A DNA stretch of 35,677 nt from Gemmatimonadales bacterium (lineage in GTDB: Bacteria; Gemmatimonadota; Gemmatimonadetes; Gemmatimonadales; GWC2-71-9), in assembly GCA_035707305.1 (NCBI GenBank), contig DASSUE010000453.1, forward strand, positions 1 through 35,677, read 5' to 3'. The notes under the pieces were generated by a model. That model saw nothing but the letters and a program-made list of their open reading frames with translations. It ran no database searches and was not told where the DNA came from. Position 1 is the first letter of the stretch, and every line of letters begins with the position of its first letter. The position numbers and the translations under genes are program-made. Shown here in pieces: positions 5,795-35,677 of the stretch.

Positions 5795-6111
5795 AGAGGT
5801 TTCCGTACCTCGTAATGGGCCGAGCGGGCGTCGAACCGATGCAGGAGCGCCCGCGCTGAGGGAGGGACCACAGCGATCTCGTAGTCTGCCCCGGCGAACG
5901 CTCGCACGGCGTCGAAAGAATCGAACCACATCATGGTGACGAACTCGACGAGGTCGTCGGCCGGTCGCCGGAGCAGCTCGATACCCCTGTAACCCGGAAT
6001 CTCGCGCTCGGCGATTCCCTGAAAGATCTCCGAGCGAAGCAGCCGCTCGTATGCATCGGCATTTTCCGGGGTGGTCCACCCGTGCCAGATCCGGCAGATC
6101 ACAGCAGCCAC
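5791..6111 (-). CDS. antibiotic-biosynthesis-monooxygenase (ABM/Dabb) domain protein
   Basis: 106 aa, ferredoxin-like. RIWHGWTTPENADAYERLL...MMWFDSFDAVRAFAG is typical of ABM-domain proteins. Confidence 0.75.
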   Translation of the reverse strand: MAAVICRIWHGWTTPENADAYERLLRSEIFQGIAEREIPGYRGIELLRRPADDLVEFVTMMWFDSFDAVRAFAGADYEIAVVPPSARALLHRFDARSAHYEVRKPL

Positions 6112-6344
6112 CAGTACAGCCAGACGAGCAGCGCCGTCATGAGAACCCCTCCACCGCAGTCTGATGCGACCGCACCCCGGCCATCAGGCGGCGGGCGCCG
6201 GCATCGCGCGACCAGTCGATCGCCGCCTGAACCTCCGGTGAGACGCTCGAACGTAATGAGCGCCCACACCTTGGCAGCGATCTGAATGCGCTCCGCCTCC
6301 CGCTGCTCTTCGTCGGCCTGCTCCTGGACCGCCTCCGGAACCAT
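6099..6344 (-). CDS. hypothetical acidic protein with C-terminal hydrophobic tail (weak call)
   Basis: 81-aa version of ORF 6099..6524, starting at ATG 6344. Third-position GC is only moderate (about 70-80% in stretches counted by hand). No SD and no family motif. Overlaps the ABM start by 13 nt. Confidence 0.2.
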   Translation of the reverse strand: MVPEAVQEQADEEQREAERIQIAAKVWALITFERLTGGSGGDRLVARCRRPPPDGRGAVASDCGGGVLMTALLVWLYWWLL

Positions 6345-6538
6345 CACGTACCCCGGCGTCGCCGGCGCCGGCAGCTGCTCGGAAGGCTGTTCGGCTATGA
6401 TCGGGTTCAGAGTGGCCCGGTGTCCTTCGGAATTCCGCCAAGTGTAGTGCTTAGCGGAGGACGATCCAAGGTGGCGGGTAGCAACCGTTACCGGTCCGGA
6501 CGTGTCAGAGTCGTGTCTCCCCACGCCCAGGTCGCACG

Positions 6539-10392: not shown

Positions 10393-10728
10393 CCCGGCCA
10401 TATTCGACCCACCATCGCCCGCGCCATCGTGAACGAAATCCCTGCACGGCTCGCCGACGCGCTCCGCGACCGCTATCGCTTCGTGCGCGAGCTGGGCAGC
10501 GGCGGCATGGGATCGGTCTACCTCGCCGAGGACCTGAAGCACCACCGGAAGGTCGCGGTGAAGGTCCTCCATCCGCACCTCGCCGCCTCGCTCGGCACCG
10601 AGCGCTTTCTCCGCGAGATCGAAGTCGCGGCGCAGCTCCAACACCCCGCGATCCTCCCGCTGCACGACAGCGGCGAGGCGGAGGGCTACGTCTACTACAT
10701 CATGCCCTTCGTGGAGGGCGAGTCGCTC
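10393..10728 (+). repeat. copy 2 of duplicated kinase 5' region
   Basis: See 8339-8675. Confidence 0.9.
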
Positions 10729-13107
10729 CGGGCCCGGCTCGCCCGCCAGCACGAGCTGTCGGTGGAGGACGCCGCCCGGATCCTCTACGACGTGCTCGAT
10801 GCGCTGGCCTACGCCCACGAGCGCGGCGTCATCCACCGGGACATCAAGCCCGATAATATCATGCTCTCGGGCCGCCACGCGCTCCTGGTGGACTTCGGCG
10901 TCGCCAAGGCGGTGAACGATTCAGCCGGCCCCTCGTTCGTGACCACCACCGGCCTGGCGCTCGGCACGCCGAGCTACATGGCGCCGGAGCAGGCGGTGGC
11001 CGACCGCGAGGTGGATCACCGGGCGGATCTCTACGCGGTGGGCGTCGTCGGATACGAGCTGCTTGCCGGACGACGGCCGTTTCCCGGCAACACCGCGCAG
11101 CAGATCGTCGCAGCGCAGCTGACCCAGTCGCCGGAGGATCTTCGCACCCACCGGCCCACAGTACCTCCGCCGCTCTCGTCAGCGATCATGCGGGCGCTGG
11201 AACGCCGGCCCGCCGACCGCTGGCAGACCGCGGGCGAGATGCACGCGAAGCTGGAGCCGTGGTTGGTGCCGAGCGGAGAGACCACGCCGGCCACGATTCC
11301 CGTCGGAACTCGAGTGCCGGCGCGCAGGAACCGCATGATTCTCGCAATCGCCGCACTGGTGCTGGCGGCGGTGGTCGCCGGCCTGCTGCTCGTCCGCACG
11401 CGTGGCACGGCGGAGCTCTCGCTCGGCCGCAGGGTCCAGATCACGCTCGATCCCGGCATGGAGATCGAGCCGGCCGTATCGCCCGACGGCCGGCTCGTCG
11501 CCTTTGCCGCCGGACCGATGCAGTCGCTCGAGATCAAGGTGCGCCGGCTCGACGGCGGGACCGCGCTCACGGTCGCCGCAGAGAGCGAGCGGCCCCAGCG
11601 ATTCCCCTCGTGGTCGCCCGACGGCGGACGGATCATGTTCGGCTCCCCGCGCGGCGTCGAGATTGTCTCCGCGCTGGGCGGCCCGGCCAAGCTGGTGGTC
11701 CCGTACGTGCCCGATCCCAACACCGACCCCTGGCTCAGCGGCGGATTCATGATGCCGGCGGGGTGGTCGCCGGATGGGAAGTCGATCGCTTTCGTGCGGG
11801 GCGACACCCTCTATCTCCAGGATCTCTCCGGCGCCGCCCCGAAGCCGATCGCGAACGGCGGCGAGATGCACTCATTCGCCTGGTCGCCCGATGGTCGCTG
11901 GATCGCGTGCGTGCGCGGCAACCGGCAGTCCCGCAACCCCGGATTTCTGTTCGCGAACCTCGGCGCATCCGGGATCTGGCTCGTACCGGTGGCGGGCGGC
12001 AAGGCGATCGCGGTCACCGGCGATGAGCATTACAACGCGAGCCCGAGCTGGTCGCCGGATAGCCGCGGACTGCTCTTCGTCTCAAACCGGGGCGGCGGCG
12101 TAGACCTGTACCAGGCGAGTCTCCGCGCAAACGGCTCGCCATATGGCGAGCCGCTCCGGCTCACGAACGGCCTCCGCGCGGAGGGGATCAGCCTGGCCGC
12201 GAACGGGCGGTGGATCGTCTGGTCGAGTCTCGCCGAGACCTCGAACGTGTGGTCGCTCGCGCTGCCGAAGAACCCGCCGGCCTCCATCCGGGATGCCCAG
12301 CCGGTTACGAGCGGCAACCAGGTCATCGAGAGCTTCGACGTATCGGCGGACGGCCGCTGGATCGCCTTCGACACCGACCGGACCGGCAATCAGGACATTT
12401 TCCGCCAGACGGTGACGGGCGGTGAGCCGGAGCGGCTGACCGAGGATGCGGCCGTCGAGTTTTGGCCCCGCTATTCGCCCAAGACCGGCGAGATCGCGTG
12501 GCACGGATTCCTCGGCGCACGTCGGCATCTGTTCGTCATGGCGGCCGACGGCCGCGACCGGCAACAGATCACCGACGGCCCGGACGACGAGCGGTGCCCG
12601 ACCTGGAGCCCTGATGGCCGCACGATCTACTACTTGCACAACTTCAACGCGCCCGACACGGAGCTGAGGGCGATCACGCGCGGCGACGACGGCAGCTGGT
12701 CAGCGCCGCGCACGCTCTACCGCGGGTCCACCTATCCCCCGATGGCCTCGCCGGACGGCCGGTGGGTGGCGATCGCCGCCGCGGGTTCGGTCGTGATCGT
12801 CAGTCCGGCAGGGGATTCCACTCGAGTGCTCGTGCCGCGGGGCGACGGGCCGGAGCCGCGCGCGATCTACGTGGACTGGTCGGATGACAGCAAGACGATC
12901 TACTACCTGGCGGTCGATCCCGCCGAGCGGGCCAGCATCTGGGGAGTGTCGGTGAGCGGCGGGCCGCCGAGGCTCATGGTCCGGTTCGACGAGCCGACCC
13001 GCGAGTGGCACCGCTTCGGGTTCGTGGCGCGGCACGGCCGCCTGTGGATGACCGTGGGCGACCGACAGAGCGACCTCTGGGCGGCCGAAGTCGGCGCGGC
13101 GCCCTAG
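10429..13107 (+). CDS. Ser/Thr protein kinase with TM segment and C-terminal PD40/TolB-like beta-propeller
   Basis: 892 aa, GTG start. GSGGMGSVY loop, VAVK, HRDIKPDN, DFG and SYMAPE motifs. TM segment ILAIAALVLAAVVAGLLLV. Repeated SPDG/WSPDG blades. Confidence 0.93.
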   Translation: MNEIPARLADALRDRYRFVRELGSGGMGSVYLAEDLKHHRKVAVKVLHPHLAASLGTERFLREIEVAAQLQHPAILPLHDSGEAEGYVYYIMPFVEGESLRARLARQHELSVEDAARILYDVLDALAYAHERGVIHRDIKPDNIMLSGRHALLVDFGVAKAVNDSAGPSFVTTTGLALGTPSYMAPEQAVADREVDHRADLYAVGVVGYELLAGRRPFPGNTAQQIVAAQLTQSPEDLRTHRPTVPPPLSSAIMRALERRPADRWQTAGEMHAKLEPWLVPSGETTPATIPVGTRVPARRNRMILAIAALVLAAVVAGLLLVRTRGTAELSLGRRVQITLDPGMEIEPAVSPDGRLVAFAAGPMQSLEIKVRRLDGGTALTVAAESERPQRFPSWSPDGGRIMFGSPRGVEIVSALGGPAKLVVPYVPDPNTDPWLSGGFMMPAGWSPDGKSIAFVRGDTLYLQDLSGAAPKPIANGGEMHSFAWSPDGRWIACVRGNRQSRNPGFLFANLGASGIWLVPVAGGKAIAVTGDEHYNASPSWSPDSRGLLFVSNRGGGVDLYQASLRANGSPYGEPLRLTNGLRAEGISLAANGRWIVWSSLAETSNVWSLALPKNPPASIRDAQPVTSGNQVIESFDVSADGRWIAFDTDRTGNQDIFRQTVTGGEPERLTEDAAVEFWPRYSPKTGEIAWHGFLGARRHLFVMAADGRDRQQITDGPDDERCPTWSPDGRTIYYLHNFNAPDTELRAITRGDDGSWSAPRTLYRGSTYPPMASPDGRWVAIAAAGSVVIVSPAGDSTRVLVPRGDGPEPRAIYVDWSDDSKTIYYLAVDPAERASIWGVSVSGGPPRLMVRFDEPTREWHRFGFVARHGRLWMTVGDRQSDLWAAEVGAAP

Positions 13108-14402: not shown

Positions 14403-14499
14403 GCCTAACGCTCCCGCTGAGCCGCGGCCCACGGGCGAAAACGCCAGGAATAACAAGAACCCGCCTCCATGGGCCGTCAGCTCCAGTGGGTTGTTAGGC
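14403..14499 (-). repeat. attC-like site (97 bp) 3' of methyltransferase cassette
   Basis: GCCTAAC 14403-14409 and GTTAGGC 14493-14499. Arms GCTGA..GGCCCA (14416-14431) and TGGGCC..TCAGC (14470-14481) are complementary with a bulge. The methyltransferase TAA (14494-14496) is inside the box. Confidence 0.7.
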
Positions 14500-15327
14500 G
14501 GGGCTTGATGACTTCTTGGCGATCGCATAGATGACATTGGTTTCGACGCGATCAATCCCGGCGGCAGCAAGCCGGTCGAGGATCTCGCGCTTCACCGTGC
14601 GGGCCAGCTCAGTGCCCATCTGATCGATCGTCCACCGCAGGCCACTCCCCAGCGCCATGGTCCAGAAATCCTCGGGCGTGCGCAGTGCCTGGTGACCATC
14701 TTCAGCAGCAACATCGATACTTTGGGCGCCACCGTCATGGAGCAGCATGCGGACCGCCTCGGGCGTCGTGATGCGGTCCCAGGGGTTAAAGGCGGCACAT
14801 AGATCGGGGCGTACGCGGCGCACGGCCTCCAACCAGATCTCGTACGCCGGACTCCAAAACCGGGCGCCCCATGTGGTGATCGCCAGTTGCCCGCCGGGCC
14901 GCACCATGCGCCACAGTTCCCCCACCTCGGTCTCCATGTCCGGAACAAAGAAAATCCCAAACACACAGACCACCGCGTCAAAGTGACCATCAGGAAAGTT
15001 CAACCCCGTCATGTCCCCGCGGCGGAACTCCACGCACTGCAGTCCTGCGGTCTGGGCCTTGGCCTGTCCGAGCTTGAGGAGGTCACCCGCGAGATCGACC
15101 GCGATCACTTGGCCCTCGGGGCCGACGGCTTGCGCCGCAGGCAACGCAGAGGCGCCGCTACCACAGCACACATCCAGCACGTGCGCCCCGTGTCGCAGCC
15201 GCAGCCGTTCGACGGTCCGCCGGCCATACCGCGCCCAGAACCCCAAGGGCTCGGCGTCGTAGTAGTCTGAGGCGGCATTGTAGGCCGTCTCGGCCTTGAG
15301 CTTCGCCGCTGCTAATGGCCCACTCAT
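14494..15327 (-). CDS. class I SAM-dependent methyltransferase
   Basis: 277 aa. Motif I VLDVCCGSGASALPAA, then VIAVDLAGDLL and post-I/II motifs (FDAVVCVFGIFF). Confidence 0.88.
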   Translation of the reverse strand: MSGPLAAAKLKAETAYNAASDYYDAEPLGFWARYGRRTVERLRLRHGAHVLDVCCGSGASALPAAQAVGPEGQVIAVDLAGDLLKLGQAKAQTAGLQCVEFRRGDMTGLNFPDGHFDAVVCVFGIFFVPDMETEVGELWRMVRPGGQLAITTWGARFWSPAYEIWLEAVRRVRPDLCAAFNPWDRITTPEAVRMLLHDGGAQSIDVAAEDGHQALRTPEDFWTMALGSGLRWTIDQMGTELARTVKREILDRLAAAGIDRVETNVIYAIAKKSSSPA

Positions 15328-15421
15328 AAGACCTTCCTGGGTACTGTCATAGGCCGTATCAACGCTCTGTTGCCCGTGATTACTCTTGCTGATGTACCTC
15401 CTTCACTTCTGCGGAATTGGG

Positions 15422-15556
15422 GCCTAACGCAATTACGCATCGGCTGCGGGCGACTCGCCCGCAGATACGAATTCGATGGTCCACAGCGGGCCGCCGCTCT
15501 GGCCCGCACGGGCGCTCGGTACTGCGAGCGCCGCCAGCTGCATGCGCTGGTTAGGC
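15422..15556 (-). repeat. attC-like site (135 bp) 3' of GNAT cassette
   Basis: GCCTAAC 15422-15428 and GTTAGGC 15550-15556. Outer arms GCAT..GCTG.GG.CG (left) and CGCCGCCAGCTGCATGC (right) are imperfectly complementary. Internal perfect hairpin CTGCGGGCG-ACT-CGCCCGCAG at 15444-15464. The GNAT TAA (15551-15553) is inside the box. Confidence 0.75.
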
Positions 15557-16033
15557 CGCGGGGTCTCCCGGGTCGAGACGCAAGACCATGGAGACATCGG
15601 CAACTTCGTACCTCTTAGCTTCTGGCACCGGACAATACTGGAAGCCTAAAGACTCGTATAATCGAAGGGCAGGTTGCAGCCGCGAGTTTGACACCAGCAT
15701 CACGCGACGGGCACCCTGCTCGCGTGCGTAGGCGATGCACCGCTCCACTAGAAGGCGTGCGATGCCTTGACCGCGGAACTCTAGTGCAACTGTGAGCTTG
15801 GCAAGCTCAAGTTCTTCAATACCATGGGGCATAACGGCACAAGTGCCGATGACCTGGCCGTTATGAAGCGCGACAAAAATCTGGCCACCACGGTTGAGGA
15901 AGTACCCTTGAGGATCAGCAAGCTGTGCCTCTTCGGCCGGCTCCATCAGATCGTAGCTTTCCAGCCACTTGCGGTTGAGTTCGGCGAAATGCTCCGCATG
16001 CTCCAAGCGAAAGGTGTCGATCTCGACGCTCAT
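15551..16033 (-). CDS. GNAT-family N-acetyltransferase
   Basis: 160 aa from ATG 16033. Acetyl-CoA motif A LEFRGQGIARLLVERCIAYAREQG, then LVSNSRLQPALRLYESLGF. Confidence 0.88.
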   Translation of the reverse strand: MSVEIDTFRLEHAEHFAELNRKWLESYDLMEPAEEAQLADPQGYFLNRGGQIFVALHNGQVIGTCAVMPHGIEELELAKLTVALEFRGQGIARLLVERCIAYAREQGARRVMLVSNSRLQPALRLYESLGFQYCPVPEAKRYEVADVSMVLRLDPGDPAA

Positions 16034-16060
16034 TCGGGTCCCACACGAGCTGGTCGGTCG

Positions 16061-16148
16061 GCCTAACGGCCTGCGTTTCAGCGCCGTGCGCTCATGTCGG
16101 CGCCCGCACCAAACTACAGCGCAGCGATGCCGATCGGTCATGTTCGTG
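16061..16148 (-). repeat. degenerate attC-like site (88 bp) 3' of DUF418 cassette
   Basis: GCCTAAC 16061-16067 is exact. The partner box is GTTCGTG (16142-16148), keeping only the GTT/AAC core. Flanking GGTCGGTCGGCCTAAC and GTTCGTGGCGACGACC are imperfectly complementary. Lies 12 nt after the DUF418 stop. Confidence 0.45.
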
Positions 16149-16159
16149 GCGACGACCGA

Positions 16160-17443
16160 TCAAGCAAGCTGACCGGCGACGCCGAGCCGCATCGGCTGAC
16201 GAGTCCCATAGGTAAGAGAGCGCCAGAGCCATTCGGCCGGTCCAAACCGAAAACGTTGCAACCACCACGCACTGAAGAGGATCTGGGCCGCGAAGATGCC
16301 TACGCTGAGCACCAGACAGAACGCCGTGCCTACGCGCCCCAGCAGCGTCAGTCCGAACCCATAGAAGAGCGCCAGATAGATCAGCGAGTGCGCGAGATAG
16401 TTTGTCAGGGCCATTTGGCCCAGTGGTGCCAGGCGCGCCAGTCGGGAGCGCCAGGATGGGAGTTGCCAGAGCAGCACGATGCCCGACACATAAGCGGCTG
16501 CCATGGCGATCACCCCTAGATATATGGGCAATTGGGCGGCCAGGACCCAGACGGAAGAAGAGGCCAATCTGCCGGAGAGAGTGAGGGACGTGGTCGCTAC
16601 CCAAAGAGCGTTGCCAAGTACCCCAATAACTAGGCCCCAGGCAAGCAGCCGTCGGAACAGTGCGAGATGCGCCTCCGGTTTCTCAAGCAACTGCCGACGG
16701 CCGGCGTAGAAGCCCAAGAGGAATTTTCCGAGGATGGCGGGAAGGAAGTGGAGGGCAACACCGGTGGTCCAGTACCCCAACGCATACTTGGCGTTCTCCC
16801 GGAGCGAGTCTACGACGCTACCCGAGGTAAAAGCCCGAAAGCGGGTGCCGAGGACCTGCAATTCCGCTGGGGCTGGTCCTGCAGTGGGAATGGCTGGATC
16901 GAGAAGCGTTTTCCCTATCCGGACCACCGCCGGGAGCACGACACCGAGGCCGATTCCCATGCCAAGGAGCCATCGATCGGAGCGCTCTCGGAACAGGATG
17001 AGCAGGAAGCCAAGCAGCGCGTAATGATGCAGGATGTCACCATACCAGACCAGGTACGCATGGACCAGCCCGAAGCCGAAAAGGATGCCAAGACGCCGCT
17101 CATAGACTGGCAGGACGGCCACGCCACGCCGCTCGCCACGTATCAACTGTACGGAGAAACCGAGCCCAAACAGAAAGGAGAAGAGCGTGTAGAACTTCCA
17201 GTCGATGAAGAACTCCACCCCGTACTTGACGATCCGGTCGATCACCGCAGTGGGCAAGGCTGCCACCTGCGCTGGCACCACTGCGCCTTCTTGAGTGATC
17301 CAGATCAGGTTTCCCAGAAGCACCCCGTCGAGGGCAAACCCCCGCACGGCATCGATGAGCGCAATGCGCTCGCCTGCCCTCAGCGGCGTGAGACGTTGAG
17401 CGTTGATCCCTCCCTCTCCGGCCTGTGGCTGGGGTAACGCCAT
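16160..17443 (-). CDS. DUF418 (YeiB-like) polytopic membrane protein
   Basis: 427 aa. N-terminal RIALIDAVRGFALDGVLLGN and C-terminal FGPAEWLWRSLTYG are the family hallmarks. Confidence 0.8.
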   Translation of the reverse strand: MALPQPQAGEGGINAQRLTPLRAGERIALIDAVRGFALDGVLLGNLIWITQEGAVVPAQVAALPTAVIDRIVKYGVEFFIDWKFYTLFSFLFGLGFSVQLIRGERRGVAVLPVYERRLGILFGFGLVHAYLVWYGDILHHYALLGFLLILFRERSDRWLLGMGIGLGVVLPAVVRIGKTLLDPAIPTAGPAPAELQVLGTRFRAFTSGSVVDSLRENAKYALGYWTTGVALHFLPAILGKFLLGFYAGRRQLLEKPEAHLALFRRLLAWGLVIGVLGNALWVATTSLTLSGRLASSSVWVLAAQLPIYLGVIAMAAAYVSGIVLLWQLPSWRSRLARLAPLGQMALTNYLAHSLIYLALFYGFGLTLLGRVGTAFCLVLSVGIFAAQILFSAWWLQRFRFGPAEWLWRSLTYGTRQPMRLGVAGQLA

Positions 17444-17489
17444 TACGCTCTGCTTACCCTTGTAAGGGCCCGGATGCCGGCTCGCGTGC

Positions 17490-17650
17490 GCCTAACGCAA
17501 TCGGCGTGTCCACCTGACGCAATCGCGCACCAGCTGCGGGCGGCAAGCCCCGCCGATACGAACTCTATGGTCCTTAGCGCCGCGCCGGCGCTGTGGCTTC
17601 GCCAGGCGTTTCCCAGAGAAGCGCCCGTCAGCTGCATGCGCTGGCTAGGC
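17490..17650 (-). repeat. attC-like site (161 bp) 3' of hicBA cassette
   Basis: GCCTAAC 17490-17496 and GCTAGGC 17644-17650 (one mismatch). Homologous along its length to the 15422-15556 site, including GATACGAAYTCKATGGTCC and the CAGCTGCATGCGCTGG arm. Contains an internal 8-nt direct duplication, ACGCAAT. Confidence 0.7.
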
Positions 17651-17651
17651 G

Positions 17652-17832
17652 TCAGGGTTTAGGGATGTCCAGATCGCGACAGATGTTGCGTGCCAGCTGC
17701 TCTCTCTCGGTGCCGCGGTACCGATGCCGCCTTGCGCGCCGCCCGATTCACATAGATCGAATGGTTGCCACCTTCACGTAAGAGTACGCAGCCGTGCGCC
17801 TCCAAATGACGCACGAGGTCCAGCCGCTTCAC
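17652..17832 (-). pseudogene. hicA: HicA-family mRNA-interferase toxin, frameshifted near the C-terminus (not in ORF track)
   Basis: GTG 17832-17830 overlaps the hicB TGA (GTGA). VKRLDLVRHLEAHGCVLLREGGNHSIYVNRAARKAASVPRHRE matches the HicA subfamily. After the CTCTCTCTC run (17700-17708) the family ending EQLARNICRDLDIPKP* is in another frame (stop 17652-17654). The actual frame ends RAAGTQHLSRSGHP* at 17659-17661. Confidence 0.7.
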
Positions 17833-18053
17833 GCGGCGGAAATGTGCAGTGGCTCGCGAATCACAGTGCGGCCCCGAAGCTCTTCTTCCGCGAGCGCCCG
17901 ATTAGCCTCGAGCACCAGCTGCACGGCCTCGTGGAGATTGGCGCGCGCTTCCTCGAGTGTGGCGCCCTGCGTGTTGGCCCCAGGCAGCTCCTCGACAAAA
18001 CCGATATAGCCCTCGGGCACCTGCTGGAAGACGGCGGTGAAGTGAACCTGCAT
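17829..18053 (-). CDS. hicB: HicB-family antitoxin
   Basis: 74 aa from ATG 18053 with AAGGAG 6 nt upstream. FTAVFQQVPEGYIGFVEELPGANTQGATLEEARANLHEAVQLVLE is the HicB N-terminal (RNase H-like) fold signature. Confidence 0.85.
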   Translation of the reverse strand: MQVHFTAVFQQVPEGYIGFVEELPGANTQGATLEEARANLHEAVQLVLEANRALAEEELRGRTVIREPLHISAA

Positions 18054-18056
18054 GGG

Positions 18057-18073
18057 GATCTCCTTGGGAGATC
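18057..18073 (-). promoter_or_regulatory. 7-bp inverted repeat over the hicB ribosome-binding site (candidate operator or RBS hairpin)
   Basis: GATCTCC-TTG-GGAGATC, perfect and overlapping AAGGAG. A possible -10 (TACATT on the minus strand) lies just upstream. Confidence 0.3.
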
Positions 18074-18095
18074 TCAAAATGTACGTGAGGCCGAC

Positions 18096-18123
18096 CCCGG
18101 ACGCCTAACCCCTGACGCCTAAC
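18096..18123 (-). repeat. tandem 14-bp duplication carrying two GCCTAAC/GTTAGGC boxes (upstream boundary of the array)
   Basis: CCCGGACGCCTAAC (18096-18109) is directly followed by CCCTGACGCCTAAC (18110-18123). No palindromic attC body lies to the right. Confidence 0.6.
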
Positions 18124-18139
18124 ACTCACTCTCATAGAA

Positions 18140-18238
18140 CTAACCGGGGTACGCTCCGCGATCCGCCGACCTCTCGCAGAGGAGGTACTCCCCGGCACCG
18201 TTGGTGATGAGCGGGACGGCGATCACGCGATGCCGCAT
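18140..18238 (-). pseudogene. NUDIX hydrolase, N-terminal 32-codon remnant
   Basis: MRHRVIAVPLITNGAGEYLLCERSADRGAYPG* resembles the strand preceding the Nudix box (..R....fPG.W.lPGG). The frame stops exactly where the box should start, 17 nt from the GTTAGGC repeat. Confidence 0.4.
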
Positions 18239-18284
18239 GAACGAAATCTGCTCGCCGGCACGATGAGCGCCAGGAGCAGCAGCG

Positions 18285-18615
18285 TCAGTTCACAGCCGGA
18301 AGGATGTGCTGCGGAACGTAGACCCGCTGCGCAATGAACAGCGACGCCTGATTGTAGCTGCCGCCGGGATGTCCATGAAAATCTGGCCGCCGTTCCCGCC
18401 GGCAAAGAAGCCCCGTACCTTCCTGCCGTCGTAGGAATACTCGGGCGAGTTCCACAACCACCCGTACTGCTGAACGCGCGAAAGGTCGCGGAGCGCCGCC
18501 GTCGACTTCCGCGCCCAATCGGGACTCACGATTTGCCGGCCGGCCCATTTGCCCTCGTTGACCATGAGCTGGGCCAGCTTCATGAAGTCGCGCGGCATGA
18601 AGTGTTGGCCGAGGT
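18285..18615 (-). pseudogene. beta-lactamase-family serine hydrolase, C-terminal remnant (paralogue of 6539-8278)
   Basis: HFMPRDFMKLAQLMVNEGKWAGRQIVSPDWARKSTAALRDLSRVQQYGWLWNSPEYSYDGRKVRGFFAGGNGGQIFMDIP aligns with residues about 465-545 of the intact gene. A deletion of roughly 26 nt then shifts frame to GGSYNQASLFIAQRVYVPQHILPAVN*. The N-terminal roughly 460 residues, including SxxK, are absent. Confidence 0.75.
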
Positions 18616-18801
18616 CATCGAGCAGAGAACCTACGTGGGCCGCGGCCCGTCCTGCCACCGCCGTGGCGTGACTCGGCCTGCCCGCGGCGCGACTCGGCAT
18701 GGACGATCGCCCACCCGTTTGCGGTAGCTCGGCCGGGGCGTAGGTTATGGCCACGGCGGGTCGGGAGCCGACCTGCCGGCACCCAATCAGCCCGGGGGCG
18801 G

Positions 18802-23685: not shown

Positions 23686-24159
23686 TCAGCGAGGTGCTAT
23701 CTGGACCGCCTCGGCCCGATACACGCCGCGCGCTCCCTTGAAGCAAATGAGCGTGAGCTCCTCGGTGCCGGACCGCCAGATGCGATCGGCCCGCGGTGAG
23801 GCCTCCTCCGAGAACCGTCGGATCGCATGGGGAGCGCCAAAGTCGCCGGTGAGCCTGGCTTCGATGTCGCGGCATCGGGGGTAGTCCGGAGGTCCGTTCG
23901 GGCGCTGAACCTCGAACATGATCCGCACCCGCCGAGCGGCTCCCGTCCCGGAGATCGCCACGGCCGAGATGTGATCCTGCATGTCCTCCGGTGCGAGGCG
24001 GAGGTAATCCCCCTGCAGGGTCGAATTGGGATGCCGCGCGGCCACTGCCATCAGATCGGAACGAAGGCTGATCCCGGTATAGGCGAACGGTTTCGCCTGC
24101 CCCGAAGCAGCGAGCAGCAAGAGAACCTGAAGCGTCCAACCCGCAGGACTCGCCATCAT
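23686..24159 (-). CDS. secreted hypothetical protein
   Basis: 157 aa. The ATG overlaps the upstream TGA (ATGA at 24156-24159). Signal peptide WTLQVLLLLAASGQA. Confidence 0.55.
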   Translation of the reverse strand: MMASPAGWTLQVLLLLAASGQAKPFAYTGISLRSDLMAVAARHPNSTLQGDYLRLAPEDMQDHISAVAISGTGAARRVRIMFEVQRPNGPPDYPRCRDIEARLTGDFGAPHAIRRFSEEASPRADRIWRSGTEELTLICFKGARGVYRAEAVQIAPR

Positions 24160-25127
24160 TGCACCTTGACGACGACCTTGCCCCGCGCCCGCCCGGTCCC
24201 CACGTGCGCGATCGCGTTGGCGGCCTCGGCGAGCGGATACTCTCGGTCGATCACGGAGCGGATCTGCCCTCGTCCCGCGAGCCCTCCCAGCTGCGCGAGC
24301 CCCTCGCGGTCGTTGTGGGAAATGAAGGGGACCAGCCGCTGGCTCACGAACGGGGACAGAGCGACCGCCTTGAGGAGCCGGCCGGCGGGCTCGAGCCATC
24401 GGCCGGCCGGGGCTCCTACCACCAGCAACATCCCGCTGCGAGCCAGGACGCGCCGGCAGTGCCCGAGCGGCTTGGTCCCGCCGATGTCGAAGATGACGTC
24501 GTAGCGCTCGCTCCGGCGGGTGAAGTCCTCGGCCGTGTGGTCGATCACCTCGTGGGCGCCGATGGAGCGGACCATCTCGATGCTCTCGGTGCGGGTCACC
24601 GCGGTGACGTGCGCGCCGAACACCTTGGCGAGCTGCACGGCGTACGTGCCGACGCCACCTCCCGCGCCGTTCACGAGGACTCGCTGGCCCGCCTGGAGGT
24701 TCGCCTTGTCGCGGAGCCCCTGCAATGCGGTCAGCCCGGCGACATGAAGCGCGGCGGCCTCCGCGTACGACAGTCCGACCGGCTTGACCGCGAGCCGATC
24801 CACCGTGGTCGCAGTGTACTCCGCGAAGCTCCCGTCGGTTCCGCCGAAGACGTCGTCGCCCGGCCTGAGCGCGGTGACGTTCGGACCCACGGCCTCGACC
24901 CGGCCGGCGAGATCCACTCCTCGGATGCGATTCCGGGGGCTGCGCAGGCCGTCGAGCGCGCGGATGAAGTAAGGCATGCCGCGGGTCGTGTGCCAGTCCA
25001 GCGCGTTCACCGACGCGGCGTGAATTCGCACCAGGACGCCGTCGTCGCCGATCGCGGGCACCTCGATGTCCGTCAGGTGCAACACGGCGGGGGAGCCGTA
25101 ACCCTCCTGCACGATCGCTTTCATCAT
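24156..25127 (-). CDS. NAD(P)H-dependent medium-chain dehydrogenase/reductase (quinone-oxidoreductase-like)
   Basis: 323 aa from ATG 25127 (ATGA overlap with the upstream gene). MKAIVQEGYGSPAVL, PGDDVFG, and Rossmann motif VLVNGAGGGVGTYAVQLAK. Confidence 0.9.
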   Translation of the reverse strand: MMKAIVQEGYGSPAVLHLTDIEVPAIGDDGVLVRIHAASVNALDWHTTRGMPYFIRALDGLRSPRNRIRGVDLAGRVEAVGPNVTALRPGDDVFGGTDGSFAEYTATTVDRLAVKPVGLSYAEAAALHVAGLTALQGLRDKANLQAGQRVLVNGAGGGVGTYAVQLAKVFGAHVTAVTRTESIEMVRSIGAHEVIDHTAEDFTRRSERYDVIFDIGGTKPLGHCRRVLARSGMLLVVGAPAGRWLEPAGRLLKAVALSPFVSQRLVPFISHNDREGLAQLGGLAGRGQIRSVIDREYPLAEAANAIAHVGTGRARGKVVVKVQ

Positions 25128-28227: not shown

Positions 28228-28332
28228 TTGCCCGCCGCCGGCTCCCGCCGCGAGCACGACACACCAAGCGACCAGTCGAGCGCGATTCCCTGCCGGGGAG
28301 TCGCCTCGGCTCGAGGAGCTCAGGCGTCTCGC

Positions 28333-28353
28333 CGCCCGTCGGCTGCATGCGCT
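28333..28353 (-). repeat. relic of the attC-family arm (box lost)
   Basis: CGCCCGTCGGCTGCATGCGCT matches 17623-17643 at 20 of 21 positions. The position of GGYTAGGC is occupied by ATCCTCCA. Lies 39-67 nt 3' of the PKD lipoprotein gene. Confidence 0.4.
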
Positions 28354-28399: not shown

Positions 28400-29380
28400 C
28401 TACTTGGGCTCGGCCCGGTGTGTCTTCGTCTTGGCTGCTCCGAGATTGTCCGTCACGGTGAGGATGACATCGTAGTCGCCCGGCGCGGCGTAGGTGTGCA
28501 CAGGATTCCGCTCGGTCGAGGTGGCTCCATCGCCGAAGATCCAGCGCCAGCTCACTATGAAGCCGTCGTCGTCCTTGCTCTTGTCGGTAAAGCTGCAGGT
28601 GAGGCCGCTGCAGTGCACCTCAAAGTCGGCGTCGGGCGGCTTGTTGGACGTCGGCGGCGCCTGGACTTCCACCGTGCGCGTCCTGGTGTCGGTCGCCCCG
28701 TCGTCGTCCGTGACCCGGAGGCGCACCTCGTATCGTCCCGCGGCCCCGAACGTGTGCGAGGGATTCCGAGAGCTCGAGGTGGTCCCGTCGCCGAACTCCC
28801 ACAGCCAGCTCACGACGTTGCCGTCGTCGTCCCGGCTCCGGTCGCTGAACGTGCAGCTCAGCCCCAGGCAGGTGAACTCGAACTCGGCTTCGGGCGCCTC
28901 GTTGGACGGCGGTGGGGGCGGGGGCGTGTCAGCGGTGACCGCCATGGCCGAGAAGGTGGCCGTCGGCAGAGCCTCTCCGTCTCCCGTCACCCTCGCTTCC
29001 CCGGTCTGGACGCCGACCTTGTCGCCCAGAAGGACGAAGGCCTGCGCTCGGCCGTCGCCGTCCGTGCGCGCCGTGGACGGCGTGACCTCGCCTCCCTCGC
29101 CGGCCGCCGTCAGGGCGAACTGCACCGTCGCGTCCTCGACGGGCGCTCCCTCGCCGTCGGTCACCTCGACCACCACCGGGGCGGTGAGAGGCTCTCCCAC
29201 TGACCCCTGCTGGCCGTCTCCGTCCACCACTCGGATCGCGAGGACGGGTTCGTTGCCCGGAAGGACCAGGTCGCTCCCGCAGCCGGCCGTGAGGCAGCCG
29301 ACCGCCAGCCAGCGCGACAGGCGACGCGGGGACCAAAGACCAAACCCACGGAAGGCGGTGAGTTGGCGACGGAGGGACAC
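28400..29380 (-). CDS. lipoprotein with Ig-like (Big) domain and two tandem PKD domains
   Basis: 326 aa, GTG start. Lipobox CLTAGC. Two PKD repeats (about 28664-28891 and 28412-28633) share F..C.GL.C.F.D.S.DDDG.IVSW.W.FGDG..S..RNP.HT...G.Y.V.L.VTD. Confidence 0.85.
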   Translation of the reverse strand: MSLRRQLTAFRGFGLWSPRRLSRWLAVGCLTAGCGSDLVLPGNEPVLAIRVVDGDGQQGSVGEPLTAPVVVEVTDGEGAPVEDATVQFALTAAGEGGEVTPSTARTDGDGRAQAFVLLGDKVGVQTGEARVTGDGEALPTATFSAMAVTADTPPPPPPSNEAPEAEFEFTCLGLSCTFSDRSRDDDGNVVSWLWEFGDGTTSSSRNPSHTFGAAGRYEVRLRVTDDDGATDTRTRTVEVQAPPTSNKPPDADFEVHCSGLTCSFTDKSKDDDGFIVSWRWIFGDGATSTERNPVHTYAAPGDYDVILTVTDNLGAAKTKTHRAEPK

Positions 29381-33830: not shown

Positions 33831-34229
33831 TCAGCGACGCGTTGCCGACCGCAGCTCCGCGATCCGAGCCTTGACCAACCGCCTCACCAGTGGAGCGGGC
33901 GGCAGCTTCGTCAAGGGAAAACGCACCGTTCCCTTCGACGTTTCGTAGCCTCGCAACGCCACAGCATGCTCGCGCCGGATCCGATCCGTGATCGGATAGA
34001 GGCTGCAGTGATGCTTGAACGCCGCGTACCAGACCAGGGGTTGCCCTTCGAGCCGGAACCCAGGGATCCGGTAGCTGAAGTGCTCGACGGCGTCGGGGGC
34101 GGCGGTGCGGATGGCCTTGCGGAGCTGCCGGAGGGCACGACGCGCCGGCGGTGGCAGCGCGGCGAAGTATGCGCGCACTTGAGCGGCGGCGCCTCTTGAA
34201 TCGGCGGCAGAGGGTCGGGAACCCGGCAA
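33831..34229 (-). CDS. DUF1801 (YdhG-like) domain protein
   Basis: About 125-132 aa. Start uncertain: TTG 34229 or a downstream [45 protein letters not shown]...SKGTVRFPL. Confidence 0.75.
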
Positions 34230-35221: not shown

Positions 35222-35442
35222 ACTGGAACCACTGGATTCGGCAGACGCACCGCTGGCTGTCCATTGCCTTTACGGTGACAGTCATGGCCAACTTCGTCGC
35301 GTTGGCTGTGGGAACCGGTCAGCCGGCCCCCTGGGTGACCTACTCGCCGCTGTTTCCGCTTGCCTTGCTCCTGCTCAGCGGTCTGTACTTGTTCGCGCTG
35401 CCGTATGCCATCAAGTGGCGCAGCGGGCGGCGCACCGACTGA
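35218..35442 (+). CDS. small 2-TM membrane protein
   Basis: 74 aa. ATGA overlap with the upstream gene. Two hydrophobic helices. Confidence 0.55.
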   Translation: MNWNHWIRQTHRWLSIAFTVTVMANFVALAVGTGQPAPWVTYSPLFPLALLLLSGLYLFALPYAIKWRSGRRTD

Positions 35443-35521
35443 ACTGGCGGCCGCACGAATACCGTAGATACTCACGAAGTGAGCGCGAACATCGCCTCCT
35501 CCAGCAAGCAACCACCCGCGA

Positions 35522-35551
35522 GCGCCCGTCAGCTGTATGCGCTGGTTAGGC
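35522..35551 (-). repeat. solo attC-family arm with intact GTTAGGC/GCCTAAC box
   Basis: GCGCCCGTCAGCTGTATGCGCTGGTTAGGC is identical to 17621-17650 at 28 of 30 positions, in the same orientation. It begins 19 nt 3' of the minus-strand gene ending at 35570. A weak partner box, ACTGAAC, sits at 35438-35444. Confidence 0.5.
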
Positions 35552-35569
35552 GGCGTGCCACGCCGATGT

Positions 35570-35677
35570 TCAGGCCGCTACGGTGCCGAAGAGCGCGCCG
35601 ATGGCAGCGGTCAGCCCCATCGCCAGTGCACCCCAGAATACCACACGCCCCGCGCCGACCGCGGCGCGTGCGCCACC
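35570..35677 (-). CDS. C-terminal end of a membrane protein, possibly VIT1/CCC1 family (partial, runs off right edge)
   Basis: The open frame to the window edge reads ...GRVVFWGALAMGLTAAIGALFGTVAA*, resembling the last TM helix of VIT-family proteins. Confidence 0.4.
   Translation of the reverse strand, partial: GGARAAVGAGRVVFWGALAMGLTAAIGALFGTVAA

What the first reader, a model, noticed from the sequence alone, without database searches (positions are those of the whole stretch)
14403..18123. Array of attC-type sites delimiting four gene cassettes, with no integrase in the window (CALIN-like)
Four intergenic elements are bounded by GCCTAAC ... GTTAGGC: 14403-14499, 15422-15556, 16061-16148 and 17490-17650. 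Two are exact; the others have GTTCGTG and GCTAGGC variants. These boxes are the RYYYAAC/GTTRRRY inverse-core and core boxes of integron attC sites. Lengths are 97, 135, 88 and 161 bp, and each has an imperfect internal palindrome with bulges. Each element sits immediately 3' of one compact minus-strand unit: hicBA, DUF418, GNAT and SAM-methyltransferase. The TAA stops of the methyltransferase (14494-14496) and GNAT (15551-15553) are the TAA inside GCCTAAC read on the minus strand. The next ORF starts 24-95 nt after each GTTAGGC. Unit sizes of about 0.6-1.4 kb and a toxin-antitoxin cassette are both classic for chromosomal integrons. By cassette orientation the integrase and attI should lie to the right of 18123, but only gene remnants are found there. 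Cassettes of unknown role, such as DUF418 and the methyltransferase, could be adaptive or defence functions.
Basis: partly seen in the sequence, partly recalled or inferred. Interest (0 to 1): 0.8.

Follow-up and report, generated by a model that had tools for sequence, protein, structure and literature searches.

The report
Decaying integron cassette cluster without integrase
This is a small, partly eroded cluster of integron gene cassettes with no integrase on its contig, from an uncultured Gemmatimonadales-type bacterium; it is a real but ordinary example of a known kind of element.

Summary
The GCCTAAC/GTTAGGC boxes are real: 9 in the window against 1.55 expected, and 8 of them lie in 14403-18123.

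A 26-nt motif from the elements found 88 loci, nearly all in Gemmatimonadales MAGs. There the repeat forms same-strand arrays: 311 of 312 neighbouring pairs share a strand, with a median spacing of 682 bp. In five loci the array adjoins an integron integrase hit, full-length in two (TIGR02249, about 422 bits), and those two share a conserved attI.

A covariance model of 72 of these sites scores three window elements:
- 15422-15556 (105 bits)
- 17512-17650 (92 bits)
- 14403-14499 (41 bits)

The fourth element is not a foldable site.

Other signs of decay:
- hicA is frameshifted.
- The attC upstream of hicBA is gone.
- The attC at 17512-17650 has mutated R boxes.

The window is the whole contig and holds no intI or attI remnant, so it meets the CALIN definition. 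A further attC at 35418-35551, at the contig end, suggests a second array nearby.

hicBA and DUF418 recur as cassettes in other arrays. This is a new member of a known kind, of modest interest.

The parts
14403..14499 (-). attC of the methyltransferase cassette, the last site of the cluster. The window plus strand is the recombinogenic bottom strand. Both R boxes are perfect (GCCTAAC...GTTAGGC).
   Evidence: Model R1 gives 41.4 bits, E = 1.4e-9. The ssDNA hairpin has z = -3.9. Four of the six pairs of the first L stem are changed on both sides relative to the family consensus and still pair, and the two bulged bases are kept. A close homologue of this attC subtype is in L045.
14494..15327 (-). 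Cassette ORF for a class I SAM-dependent methyltransferase (277 aa). Its stop codon lies inside R''.
   Evidence: Pfam Ubie_methyltran and Methyltransf_25/11. All NCBIfam hits fall below their cut-offs. The only PADLOC hit is a generic methyltransferase-domain match.
15422..15556 (-). attC of the GNAT cassette. It is intact and of the long subtype.
   Evidence: R1 gives 104.9 bits, E = 1.3e-26. It is 78-86% identical to many attCs in Gemmatimonadales arrays.
15551..16033 (-). Cassette ORF for a GNAT N-acetyltransferase (160 aa from the ATG at 16033). Its stop codon lies inside R''.
   Evidence: Pfam Acetyltransf_1, 67.5 bits. GC is 0.57 and GC3 0.63, against about 0.70 and 0.89 in a flanking gene.
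16061..16117 (-). Truncated attC of the DUF418 cassette. Only the distal loop, L' and R' (GTTAGGC) remain; the R''-L'' half, about 85 nt, is deleted. It cannot form the hairpin.
   Evidence: Folding gives z = +0.2. R1 finds no hit. nhmmer matches model positions 1-57 only. The alignment with the intact DUF418 cassette in L096 supports the truncation.
16160..17443 (-). Cassette ORF for a DUF418 (YeiB-like) membrane protein of 427 aa. The 42 nt after its stop (16118-16159) are a conserved 3' UTR.
   Evidence: Pfam DUF418, 149.8 bits. Homologues 82-90% identical sit in different gene neighbourhoods. In L096 the homologue is flanked by two R1 attCs.
17490..17511 (-). An orphan, intact R' core (GTTAGGC on the minus strand, 17490-17496) plus a 15-nt scar. 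It is either a local duplication or the remains of a deleted cassette.
   Evidence: CGATTGC+GTYAGG is repeated 22 nt apart. The scar resembles the start of the next cassette in L015 and L043.
17512..17650 (-). attC of the hicBA cassette, long subtype, with both R boxes mutated (bottom strand ACCTGAC...GCTAGGC).
   Evidence: R1 gives 92.0 bits, E = 3.8e-23, with non-standard pairs flagged in the R box. The fold is weak, z = -1.2.
17659..17832 (-). hicA toxin gene with a 5-nt deletion. The conserved C-terminus (QLARNICRDLDIPKP) is out of frame.
   Evidence: Pfam HicA_toxin matches residues 5-45 only. Homology to the L015 and L043 HicA stops at residue 43. Alignment A2 and the three-frame translation show the frameshift.
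17829..18053 (-). hicB antitoxin gene (74 aa from the ATG at 18053, with an AAGGAG ribosome-binding site upstream).
   Evidence: The Pfam hits UPF0150 and HicB_lk_antitox are below cut-off. The protein is 76-95% identical to HicB in the arrays of L015, L043 and L068.
18096..18123 (-). Proximal end of the cluster. The first 14 nt of the hicBA cassette (GTTAGGCGTCNGGG) are tandemly duplicated, giving two orphan R' cores. The upstream attC found in relatives is absent here.
   Evidence: Alignment with L068, L043 and L015, where a complete attC precedes the cassette. The boxes are at 18103 and 18117.
18140..18650 (-). Flanking remnant of a gene that reads like the C-terminal part of a serine hydrolase (beta-lactamase-type). 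It is N-terminally truncated and frameshifted.
   Evidence: Six-frame translation. The family assignment rests on reading that translation; Pfam found nothing for the ORFs 18290-18754 and 18285-18548.
35418..35551 (-). A further attC at the contig end. Its R''-L'' arm is well conserved and its R' is degenerate (GCGCAGC). It follows a minus-strand ORF that runs off the contig (35572-35677), so it is probably the last site of a second array.
   Evidence: R1 gives 24.1 bits, E = 5.9e-5. nhmmer gives E = 1.4e-8 for the 3' arm. Sequence and translation were read directly.
28332..28353 (-). Possible relic of an L'' arm (CGCCCGTCGGCTGCATGCGCT, 20 of 21 matches to the consensus). It lies 47 nt downstream of the minus-strand PKD-domain gene at 28400-29380 and has no R box.
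   Evidence: nhmmer gives E = 0.044. The sequence was read directly. The evidence is weak.

Best explanation
The region is a cluster of integron gene cassettes lacking an integrase (a CALIN), of the integron type found across Gemmatimonadales.

Layout. The cassettes read on the minus strand in the order hicBA, DUF418, GNAT, methyltransferase. Each originally ended in an attC site.

Mechanism (inferred from established integron biology). The window's plus strand is the bottom strand. When single-stranded it folds into a hairpin with these parts:
- a 7-bp R box (GCCTAAC/GTTAGGC);
- a short unpaired spacer;
- two 6-bp stems;
- two bulged bases at positions 16 and 23 on the arm opposite the AAC triplet;
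- a variable loop.
An integron integrase would cut in the R' box and exchange cassettes between attC sites, or between an attC and attI.

State of this copy. The machinery is absent from the contig and the cluster is eroding.
- The attC upstream of hicBA is lost.
- The hicBA attC has mutated R boxes.
- The DUF418 attC has lost its R''-L'' half.
- hicA is frameshifted.

Consequence (inferred). Only the methyltransferase cassette is still flanked by two intact attCs. It could still be excised if an integrase is supplied in trans. DUF418+GNAT might move as a fused unit. hicBA is fixed.

Likely origin. The cluster was probably separated from an integron by deletion or rearrangement. Insertion at a secondary site is a less likely alternative.
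For: Shown:
- Box enrichment.
- Family-specific covariance-model hits at 105, 92 and 41 bits, on the plus strand only.
- The 26-nt motif recovers 88 loci; 71 of the 80 listed are labelled Gemmatimonad*.
- In those loci 311 of 312 adjacent sites share a strand, with median spacing 682 bp.
- Integron-integrase hits in five arrays (L018, L023, L039, L053, L084) lie next to and co-oriented with the arrays; the L018, L053 and L084 hits are partial. The two full-length genes score TIGR02249 at 421-423 bits against a cut-off of 265 and align end to end with VchIntIA.
- In L023 and L039 a conserved attI ends in TTAYTA|GTTAGGC.
- The stems are 98% paired over 72 sites. The bulged C and Y are separated by a 6-bp stem on the arm opposite AAC, which matches the published attC geometry (PMC5027507).
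- The site at 14403-14499 keeps the stem through changes on both sides.
- The hicBA cassette recurs in three other arrays behind a full attC.
- The DUF418 cassette recurs with different neighbours and with an intact attC in L096.
- The cassettes are absent next to the kinase orthologue in three relatives.
- The cassette genes have lower GC and GC3 than the flanks.
- There is no intI or attI remnant anywhere on the contig, and the window is the whole contig.

Inferred:
- Recombination activity.
- Which cassettes remain mobilisable.
- The origin of the cluster.
Against: - IntegronFinder's generic attC model could not be run. The model used here was built from sites found with a motif taken from the window itself, so the two best hits are partly circular. 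The 5' arm, the integrase adjacency and the 14403-14499 site are independent of that motif.
- MFE folds of 15422-15556 and 17490-17650 prefer local hairpins over the canonical R/L pairing.
- The bulged bases are C and C/T rather than the usual G and T. The spacer is asymmetric, 5 nt against 2 nt.
- No recombination has been shown for any site of this family.
- CALIN status holds only for this 35.7-kb contig. The rest of the genome is unseen, and an attC at the contig end suggests another array nearby.
Confidence: 0.9

Rival explanations
1. The cluster is not an orphan. It is a satellite or split-off part of a complete integron in the same genome, and an integrase encoded just beyond the contig end or elsewhere still services its intact cassettes in trans.
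For: - A fifth attC in the same orientation sits at 35418-35551. It follows a cassette-like ORF that runs off the contig end, which is where assemblies of cassette arrays tend to break.
- A possible L'' relic lies at 28332-28353.
- Half of published CALINs lie in replicons that encode IntI (PMC4889954).
- The methyltransferase cassette keeps two intact attCs.
Against: - The 17 kb between the two sites exceeds the 4-kb clustering rule and holds large ordinary genes.
- Multiple deletions, mutated R boxes and a frameshifted hicA suggest the cluster has not been maintained by recombination.
- No integrase can be seen.
Confidence: 0.35
2. The cassettes were inserted directly into the chromosome at a secondary (non-attI) site by an integrase acting in trans. 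On this view the cluster never had its own integrase.
For: - The proximal junction has only G|TTAGGC and no attC or attI, as expected for attC x secondary-site insertion.
- This route to CALINs is recognised in the literature (PMC4889954 and PMC8618304).
Against: - The distal R' at 14403-14409 is a perfect GTTAGGC, whereas a secondary-site product should carry TTnnnn from the target.
- The proximal junction carries a 14-nt tandem duplication next to a truncated, frameshifted gene. Together with the internal deletions, this looks like deletion damage rather than a clean insertion.
Confidence: 0.15
3. The elements are REP/MITE-like intergenic repeats or transcription-terminator hairpins unrelated to integrons.
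For: - They are intergenic imperfect palindromes that recur in many genomes.
- No Rfam family matches.
Against: - 311 of 312 neighbouring copies share a strand at cassette-like spacing.
- Each follows a co-oriented ORF.
- Arrays start at an integron integrase, with attI in the two loci read.
- The same gene with its repeat moves between arrays.
- There is no T-run after the hairpins.
Confidence: 0.02

Closest known systems
CALIN (cluster of attC sites lacking an integron-integrase), as defined by Cury et al. 2016 (PMC4889954)
   Same: - At least two attC sites lie less than 4 kb apart on one strand.
- There is no integrase and no recognisable intI pseudogene nearby.
- The cluster is small (three foldable sites).
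- The cassettes are of unknown or non-resistance function.
   Different: - The sites were identified with a lineage-specific model, not IntegronFinder's model.
- The cluster carries explicit decay scars: a half attC, orphan R' cores and a frameshifted toxin gene.
Sedentary chromosomal integron arrays with homogeneous attC sites, such as the Vibrio cholerae VCR array (PMC5027507, PMC5371416)
   Same: - The attC sites are long (97-141 nt), with conserved R and L arms and a large variable loop.
- Toxin-antitoxin cassettes sit inside the arrays.
- Arrays in relatives are long: up to 14 sites in an 8-kb locus in this data set.
   Different: - The bulged bases are C and C/T instead of G and T.
- The unpaired spacer is asymmetric (5 nt against 2 nt).
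- The host is Gemmatimonadales, not Gammaproteobacteria.
Integrons of the 'inverted integrase' group (PMC3575428); from my own memory, Treponema is an example
   Same: In five related loci the intI hit is on the same strand as the cassettes. In L023 and L039, where intI is full-length, its 3' end faces attI.
   Different: - The Gemmatimonadales IntI is 53-56% identical to an IntI1 sequence that I recalled from memory.
- Its phylogenetic position was not determined.
- This applies to the relatives; the window has no integrase.
HicAB type II toxin-antitoxin cassettes
   Same: - The gene order is hicB then hicA, with overlapping stop and start.
- There is a HicA_toxin domain.
- The pair occurs as a cassette in several arrays.
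   Different: - hicA is frameshifted here.
- The HicB matches to Pfam are below cut-off.

Membership tests
integron attC site | R' and R'' boxes: bottom strand 5'-RYYYAAC ... GTTRRRY-3', complementary to each other | tested here: met
   - 14403-14499 and 15422-15556 are perfect.
- 17512-17650 is degenerate (ACCTGAC/GCTAGGC).
- 16061-16148 has R' only, so it does not meet the feature.
integron attC site | The bottom strand folds into an imperfect hairpin pairing R'/R'' and L'/L'' | tested here: met
   - Family alignment: 22 pairs, 98% paired, against 25-35% when the partners are slid.
- 14403-14499 folds with z = -3.9 and keeps the first L stem through changes on both sides.
- The feature is not met for 16061-16148 (z = +0.2) and is weak for 17490-17650 (z = -1.2).
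integron attC site | Extrahelical bases on the arm opposite the AAC triplet, with the first and last separated by a 6-bp stem (PMC5027507) | tested here: met
   Bulged C at position 16 and C/T at position 23, counted from the R'' end, separated by the CAGCTG stem. These are conserved in 72 sites and in the three window sites. The base identities differ from the usual G and T.
integron attC site | Significant hit to the generic attC covariance model of IntegronFinder | not tested
   The model is not available here and Rfam holds no attC family. A lineage-specific model, R1, was used instead.
integron attC site | Recombined by an integron integrase | not testable with these tools
   The only evidence is by association: the same site family adjoins intI in L018, L023, L039, L053 and L084, with attI in L023 and L039.
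integron gene cassette | One compact, usually promoterless ORF followed by its own attC, found in different arrays with different neighbours | tested here: met
   - hicBA occurs in L015, L043 and L068.
- DUF418 occurs in L091-L096, with flanking attCs in L096.
- Recurrence was not shown for the GNAT or methyltransferase cassettes.
CALIN (Cury et al. 2016) | At least two attC sites on one strand, less than 4 kb apart | tested here: met
   Three sites on the same strand at 14403, 15422 and 17512, separated by 0.9 and 2.0 kb.
CALIN (Cury et al. 2016) | No integron-integrase gene in the element, and no intI pseudogene within 10 kb | tested here: met
   tblastn with a recalled IntI1 and with the L023 and L039 IntI sequences over the whole 35.7-kb contig gave a best E-value of 0.15. 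The rest of the genome was not seen.
complete integron | intI gene with the integron-specific domain, next to the array | tested here: not met
   None on the contig.
complete integron | attI site at the head of the array | tested here: not met
   The attI conserved in L023 and L039 has no match in the window.
REP/MITE-type dispersed repeat | Copies scattered in both orientations, independent of gene ends and of integrases | tested here: not met
   311 of 312 adjacent copies are on the same strand, in arrays. The loci were found through the repeat itself, so genome-wide scatter was not surveyed.

The most novel reading that the evidence does not exclude
The contig may record the slow domestication of a once much larger chromosomal cassette array. 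On this reading the whole stretch from about 13 to 35.5 kb was an integron array whose attC sites have mostly eroded. What remains would be:
- the 14.4-18.1 kb cluster;
- a relic L'' arm at 28.3 kb;
- a degenerate terminal attC at 35.4 kb;
- 'chromosomal' genes whose homologues are still cassettes in relatives, namely the ADH-like gene at 24156-25124 and the DUF1801 gene at 33831-34229.
If so, it would be a snapshot of how integron cassettes become fixed host genes in an order-wide Gemmatimonadales integron family. In that family the integrase points into the array and the attC arms are almost invariant across the 72 sites aligned.
Probability: 0.2. Interest if true: 0.45.

Novelty: new member of a known kind. 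Interest (0 to 1): 0.3.

Why it matters
Integrons and CALINs are well described, and Gemmatimonadota is already listed among the phyla that carry integrons (PMC8618304). The finding therefore adds an example, not a concept. It has three modest uses:
- It gives a lineage-specific attC model: near-invariant arms and bulged bases at the canonical positions 16 and 23, but with C and C/T. This could help assign soil cassette amplicons to Gemmatimonadales.
- It shows, base by base, how an orphan cassette cluster decays, through a half attC, orphan R' cores and a frameshifted toxin gene.
- It points to related integrons whose integrase is co-oriented with the cassettes.

No resistance or defence function is supported for the cassettes.

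Tried and rejected
- Exact-protein look-ups of four window proteins found no public contig. The homologue search later showed that the window is the entire 35,677-bp contig, so it could not be extended.
- Rfam gave no hits.
- A generic RYYYAAC...GTTRRRY palindrome scan found only the two perfect sites and one chance match inside an ORF.
- The metagenome scan with the flanking 711-aa protein gave only 42%-identical, non-syntenic relatives.
- Searches for an attI or intI remnant were negative.
- I looked for an attC relic downstream of the ADH-like gene, which is a cassette in L039. None was found.
- I asked whether the two PD40 Ser/Thr kinase genes in inverted orientation (10429-13107 and 29705-32368) could have mediated an inversion. 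They are only 38% identical, so there is no support.
- The defence hypothesis for the cassettes was rejected. PADLOC gave only a generic methyltransferase-domain hit to mad2.
- The methyltransferases next to the kinase orthologue in L097 and L098 are only 39-40% identical to the cassette methyltransferase. They are not orthologues, so they do not show conserved synteny.


Full report
**Observation**

The heptamer GCCTAAC, or its complement GTTAGGC, occurs 9 times in the 35.7-kb window. Dinucleotide-preserving shuffles give 1.55 on average, and none of 100 shuffles reached 9. Eight of the nine copies lie in 14403-18123.

- a class I SAM methyltransferase (14494-15327);
- a GNAT acetyltransferase (15551-16033);
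- a DUF418 membrane protein (16160-17443);
- HicA (17659-17832) and HicB (17829-18053).

The TAA stops of the methyltransferase and the GNAT lie inside the box, and each next ORF starts 24-94 nt after a box. GC falls from about 0.69 to about 0.62 across the region. The GNAT, DUF418 and hicA genes have lower GC3 than the flanking genes.

**What the repeats are**

I took a 26-nt degenerate motif shared by three of the elements and scanned one genome per prokaryotic species. It returned 88 loci. Of the 80 listed, 71 are labelled Gemmatimonadales, Gemmatimonadaceae or Gemmatimonadota, and many carry several copies on one strand.

A profile of the sites finds 397 copies in these loci. Of 312 neighbouring pairs closer than 4 kb, 311 share a strand. 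The median spacing is 682 bp, with an interquartile range of 554-919 bp. That is cassette-array behaviour, not REP/MITE behaviour.

tblastn with IntI1 (a sequence recalled from memory) found integrase hits beside five of the arrays; three of the hits are partial. The two full-length genes, in L023 and L039, have these properties:
- They score 421-423 bits on NCBIfam TIGR02249 'integron integrase', whose cut-off is 265.
- They align end to end with the crystallised Vibrio integrase VchIntIA.
- Each is followed by a conserved stretch of about 90 nt that ends TTAYTA|GTTAGGC. This is an attI site, and the first cassette follows it.

In all five loci the integrase hit is on the same strand as the cassettes. 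In L023 and L039 its 3' end points into the array.

**Structure of the sites**

I aligned 72 non-redundant sites. Their ends are nearly invariant and their centres vary, giving a short type of about 100 nt and a long type of about 135 nt.

The strand equivalent to the window's plus strand reads as follows. The 5' arm is GCCTAAC-GGACC-GCGCAT-CAGCTG-CGG, then the variable loop. The 3' arm is CCG-Y-CAGCTG-C-ATGCGC-TK-GTTAGGC.

The 22 proposed pairs are standard in 98% of cells. That falls to 25-35% when the partners are slid by one to three columns. Covariation within the family is small because the arms hardly vary: one pair changes from CG to GC in three sequences.

Two bases on the 3' arm have no partner, a C and a C/T. 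They are separated by exactly a 6-bp stem and sit at positions 16 and 23 counted from the R'' end. The published description of attC bottom strands matches this. Extrahelical bases lie on the arm opposite the AAC triplet, at positions 16 and 23/24, and a 6-bp stem between the first and last is needed for efficient recombination (PMC5027507). Two things differ from the classical sites: the base identities (usually G and T) and an asymmetric unpaired spacer of 5 nt against 2 nt.

**The window's elements one by one**

I built covariance model R1 from the 72 sites and ran it without filters over the window.

| Element | R1 result | Notes |
|---|---|---|
| 15422-15556 | 104.9 bits | intact, long subtype |
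| 17512-17650 | 92.0 bits | R boxes mutated |
| 14403-14499 | 41.4 bits, E = 1.4e-9 | perfect R boxes, rarer subtype |
| 35418-35551 | 24.1 bits, E = 5.9e-5 | new site at the contig end |
| 16061-16148 | no hit | not a foldable site |

All hits are on the plus strand.

The site at 14403-14499 belongs to a rarer subtype; its closest relative is in L045. In its first L stem, four of the six pairs differ from the consensus on both sides and still pair, and both bulges are kept. This is the best independent support for the structure. It folds as ssDNA with z = -3.9.

I aligned it with DUF418 homologues. Positions 16061-16117 correspond to the distal loop, L' and R' of the intact attC that follows the 85%-identical DUF418 gene in L096. 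About 85 nt carrying R'' and L'' have been deleted.

It is preceded by 15 nt of scar and an orphan, intact GCCTAAC at 17490.

In L068, L043 and L015 a complete attC precedes the hicBA cassette. In the window that attC is missing, and the first 14 nt of the cassette are tandemly duplicated (18096-18123). This explains the two boxes at 18103 and 18117. Next to them lies a truncated, frameshifted remnant that reads like the C-terminal part of a serine hydrolase; this rests on reading the translation only.

hicA has a 5-nt deletion that puts its conserved C-terminus out of frame.

**Cassette mobility**

- HicB is 76% identical to the HicB in L015 and L043 and 95% identical to the one in L068. In each case it lies inside an array behind a full attC.
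- DUF418 homologues 82-90% identical lie in five further contigs with different neighbours, mostly in runs of small co-oriented genes. In L096 the gene is bracketed by two R1 sites.
- Orthologues of the flanking PD40 Ser/Thr kinase (74-83% identical) in three contigs have none of the window's cassette genes and no attC beside them. The wider neighbourhood is not conserved either, so this is not a clean empty site.
- Named homologues of the kinase come from Gemmatimonadales. That fits the taxonomic distribution of the attC family.

**Integrase and status**

The window is the whole contig. tblastn with the recalled IntI1 and with the relatives' own IntI sequences finds nothing better than E = 0.15. 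The relatives' attI has no match either. No transposase was seen among the ORFs scanned, and the RsgA GTPase gene at 265-1173 marks the contig as chromosomal.

Three same-strand attC sites lie less than 4 kb apart, and there is no integrase or pseudogene within 10 kb. The cluster therefore meets the published CALIN definition (PMC4889954).

The extra attC at 35418-35551 follows a minus-strand ORF that runs off the contig end. A second array, possibly a complete integron, may therefore begin there, 17 kb away. A 20-of-21 match to the L'' arm at 28332-28353, just downstream of a minus-strand gene, may be another relic.

**How it most likely works**

By analogy with characterised integrons, the plus strand of each intact site would fold when single-stranded. 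An IntI dimer would bind it through the R and L boxes and the two bulged bases, cut in the AAC of R', and exchange strands with another attC or with attI. None of this is shown here.

On that basis the predictions are:
- The methyltransferase cassette, with intact sites on both sides, should still be excisable if an integrase is supplied in trans.
- DUF418+GNAT could at best move together.
- hicBA is fixed.

The internal deletions, the mutated boxes and the broken toxin gene suggest a cluster cut off from its integrase and decaying. I favour loss by deletion or rearrangement over insertion at a secondary site. The distal R' is a perfect GTTAGGC, and the proximal junction looks damaged rather than clean.

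**Functions**

The methyltransferase matches UbiE/MenG/ArsM-like models only below their cut-offs. The GNAT and DUF418 proteins are generic. PADLOC gives no defence assignment beyond a generic methyltransferase-domain match.

**Comparison and novelty**

Integrons have been reported in Gemmatimonadota, and CALINs are common (PMC8618304; PMC4889954). An 'inverted integrase' group is recognised (PMC3575428). I did not determine whether the Gemmatimonadales IntI belongs to it. This is a new member of a known kind. What it adds is a lineage-specific attC model and a clear picture of decay.

**Limits**

- IntegronFinder's generic attC model was not available.
- Model R1 derives from loci found with a motif taken from the window.
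- The loci were found through the repeat itself, so genome-wide scatter was not surveyed.
- No experiment supports recombination for any site of this family.

Noticed in passing
window 35418-35677: A fifth attC of the same family and orientation sits at 35418-35551 (R'' and L'' conserved, R' degenerate). It follows a partial minus-strand ORF that runs off the contig end. It is probably the distal end of a second cassette array, and it may explain why the assembly broke here.
   Followed up: partly
window 28332-28353: CGCCCGTCGGCTGCATGCGCT matches the conserved L'' arm of the attC family at 20 of 21 positions. It lies 47 nt downstream of the minus-strand PKD-domain gene (28400-29380) and has no R box. 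It may be an eroded attC (nhmmer E = 0.044).
   Followed up: partly
L023 3761-4820; L039 4405-5504 (minus strand); also L018, L053, L084: In the related Gemmatimonadales integrons the intI hit is on the same strand as the cassettes. In L023 and L039 its 3' end faces a conserved attI (…GGGATGTCGGTCCACTTAYTA|GTTAGGC). The protein is 53-56% identical to an IntI1 sequence recalled from memory.
   Followed up: partly
window 17651-17664 and 18110-18116; L043, L015, L068: The hicBA cassette carries GTCAGGG just after its 5' TTAGGC and CCCTGAC just before R''. In a circular cassette this would extend the R-box stem by 7 bp. The 3' copy is conserved in L043 and L015; at the 5' end L068 reads GTCAGGG while L043 and L015 read GTCAGCC. 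This explains the 18-nt, 94%-complementary inverted repeat that flanks hicBA in the window.
   Followed up: partly
window 24156-25124; 33831-34229; 6099-6524: Three apparently chromosomal genes have homologues inside cassette arrays of relatives: the ADH-like gene (64% to L039, where attCs lie on either side of it), the DUF1801 gene (67% to L010 and L042) and an unknown 141-aa ORF (46% to L006). No attC relic was found beside the ADH-like gene in the window.
   Followed up: partly
window 10429-13107 (+) and 29705-32368 (-): Two Ser/Thr kinases with PD40 beta-propeller repeats lie in inverted orientation on either side of the variable region. They are only 38% identical, so they are old paralogues and not a recent inverted duplication.
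   Followed up: yes
window 18140-18650: A truncated, frameshifted remnant that reads like the C-terminus of a serine hydrolase (beta-lactamase-type) abuts the proximal end of the cluster. The call rests on reading the translation; Pfam found nothing for the two ORFs tested there. It has no tblastn match (E <= 1e-4) to L097, which carries a DUF998+Beta-lactamase fusion gene.
   Followed up: partly
L031, L036, L045: A few loci with this attC family are labelled as non-Gemmatimonadota MAGs (Competibacteraceae, Pirellula, Chromatiaceae). This could reflect mis-binning of cassette arrays or transfer between phyla; it was not resolved. L045 holds the closest relative of the 14403-14499 attC subtype.
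   Followed up: no
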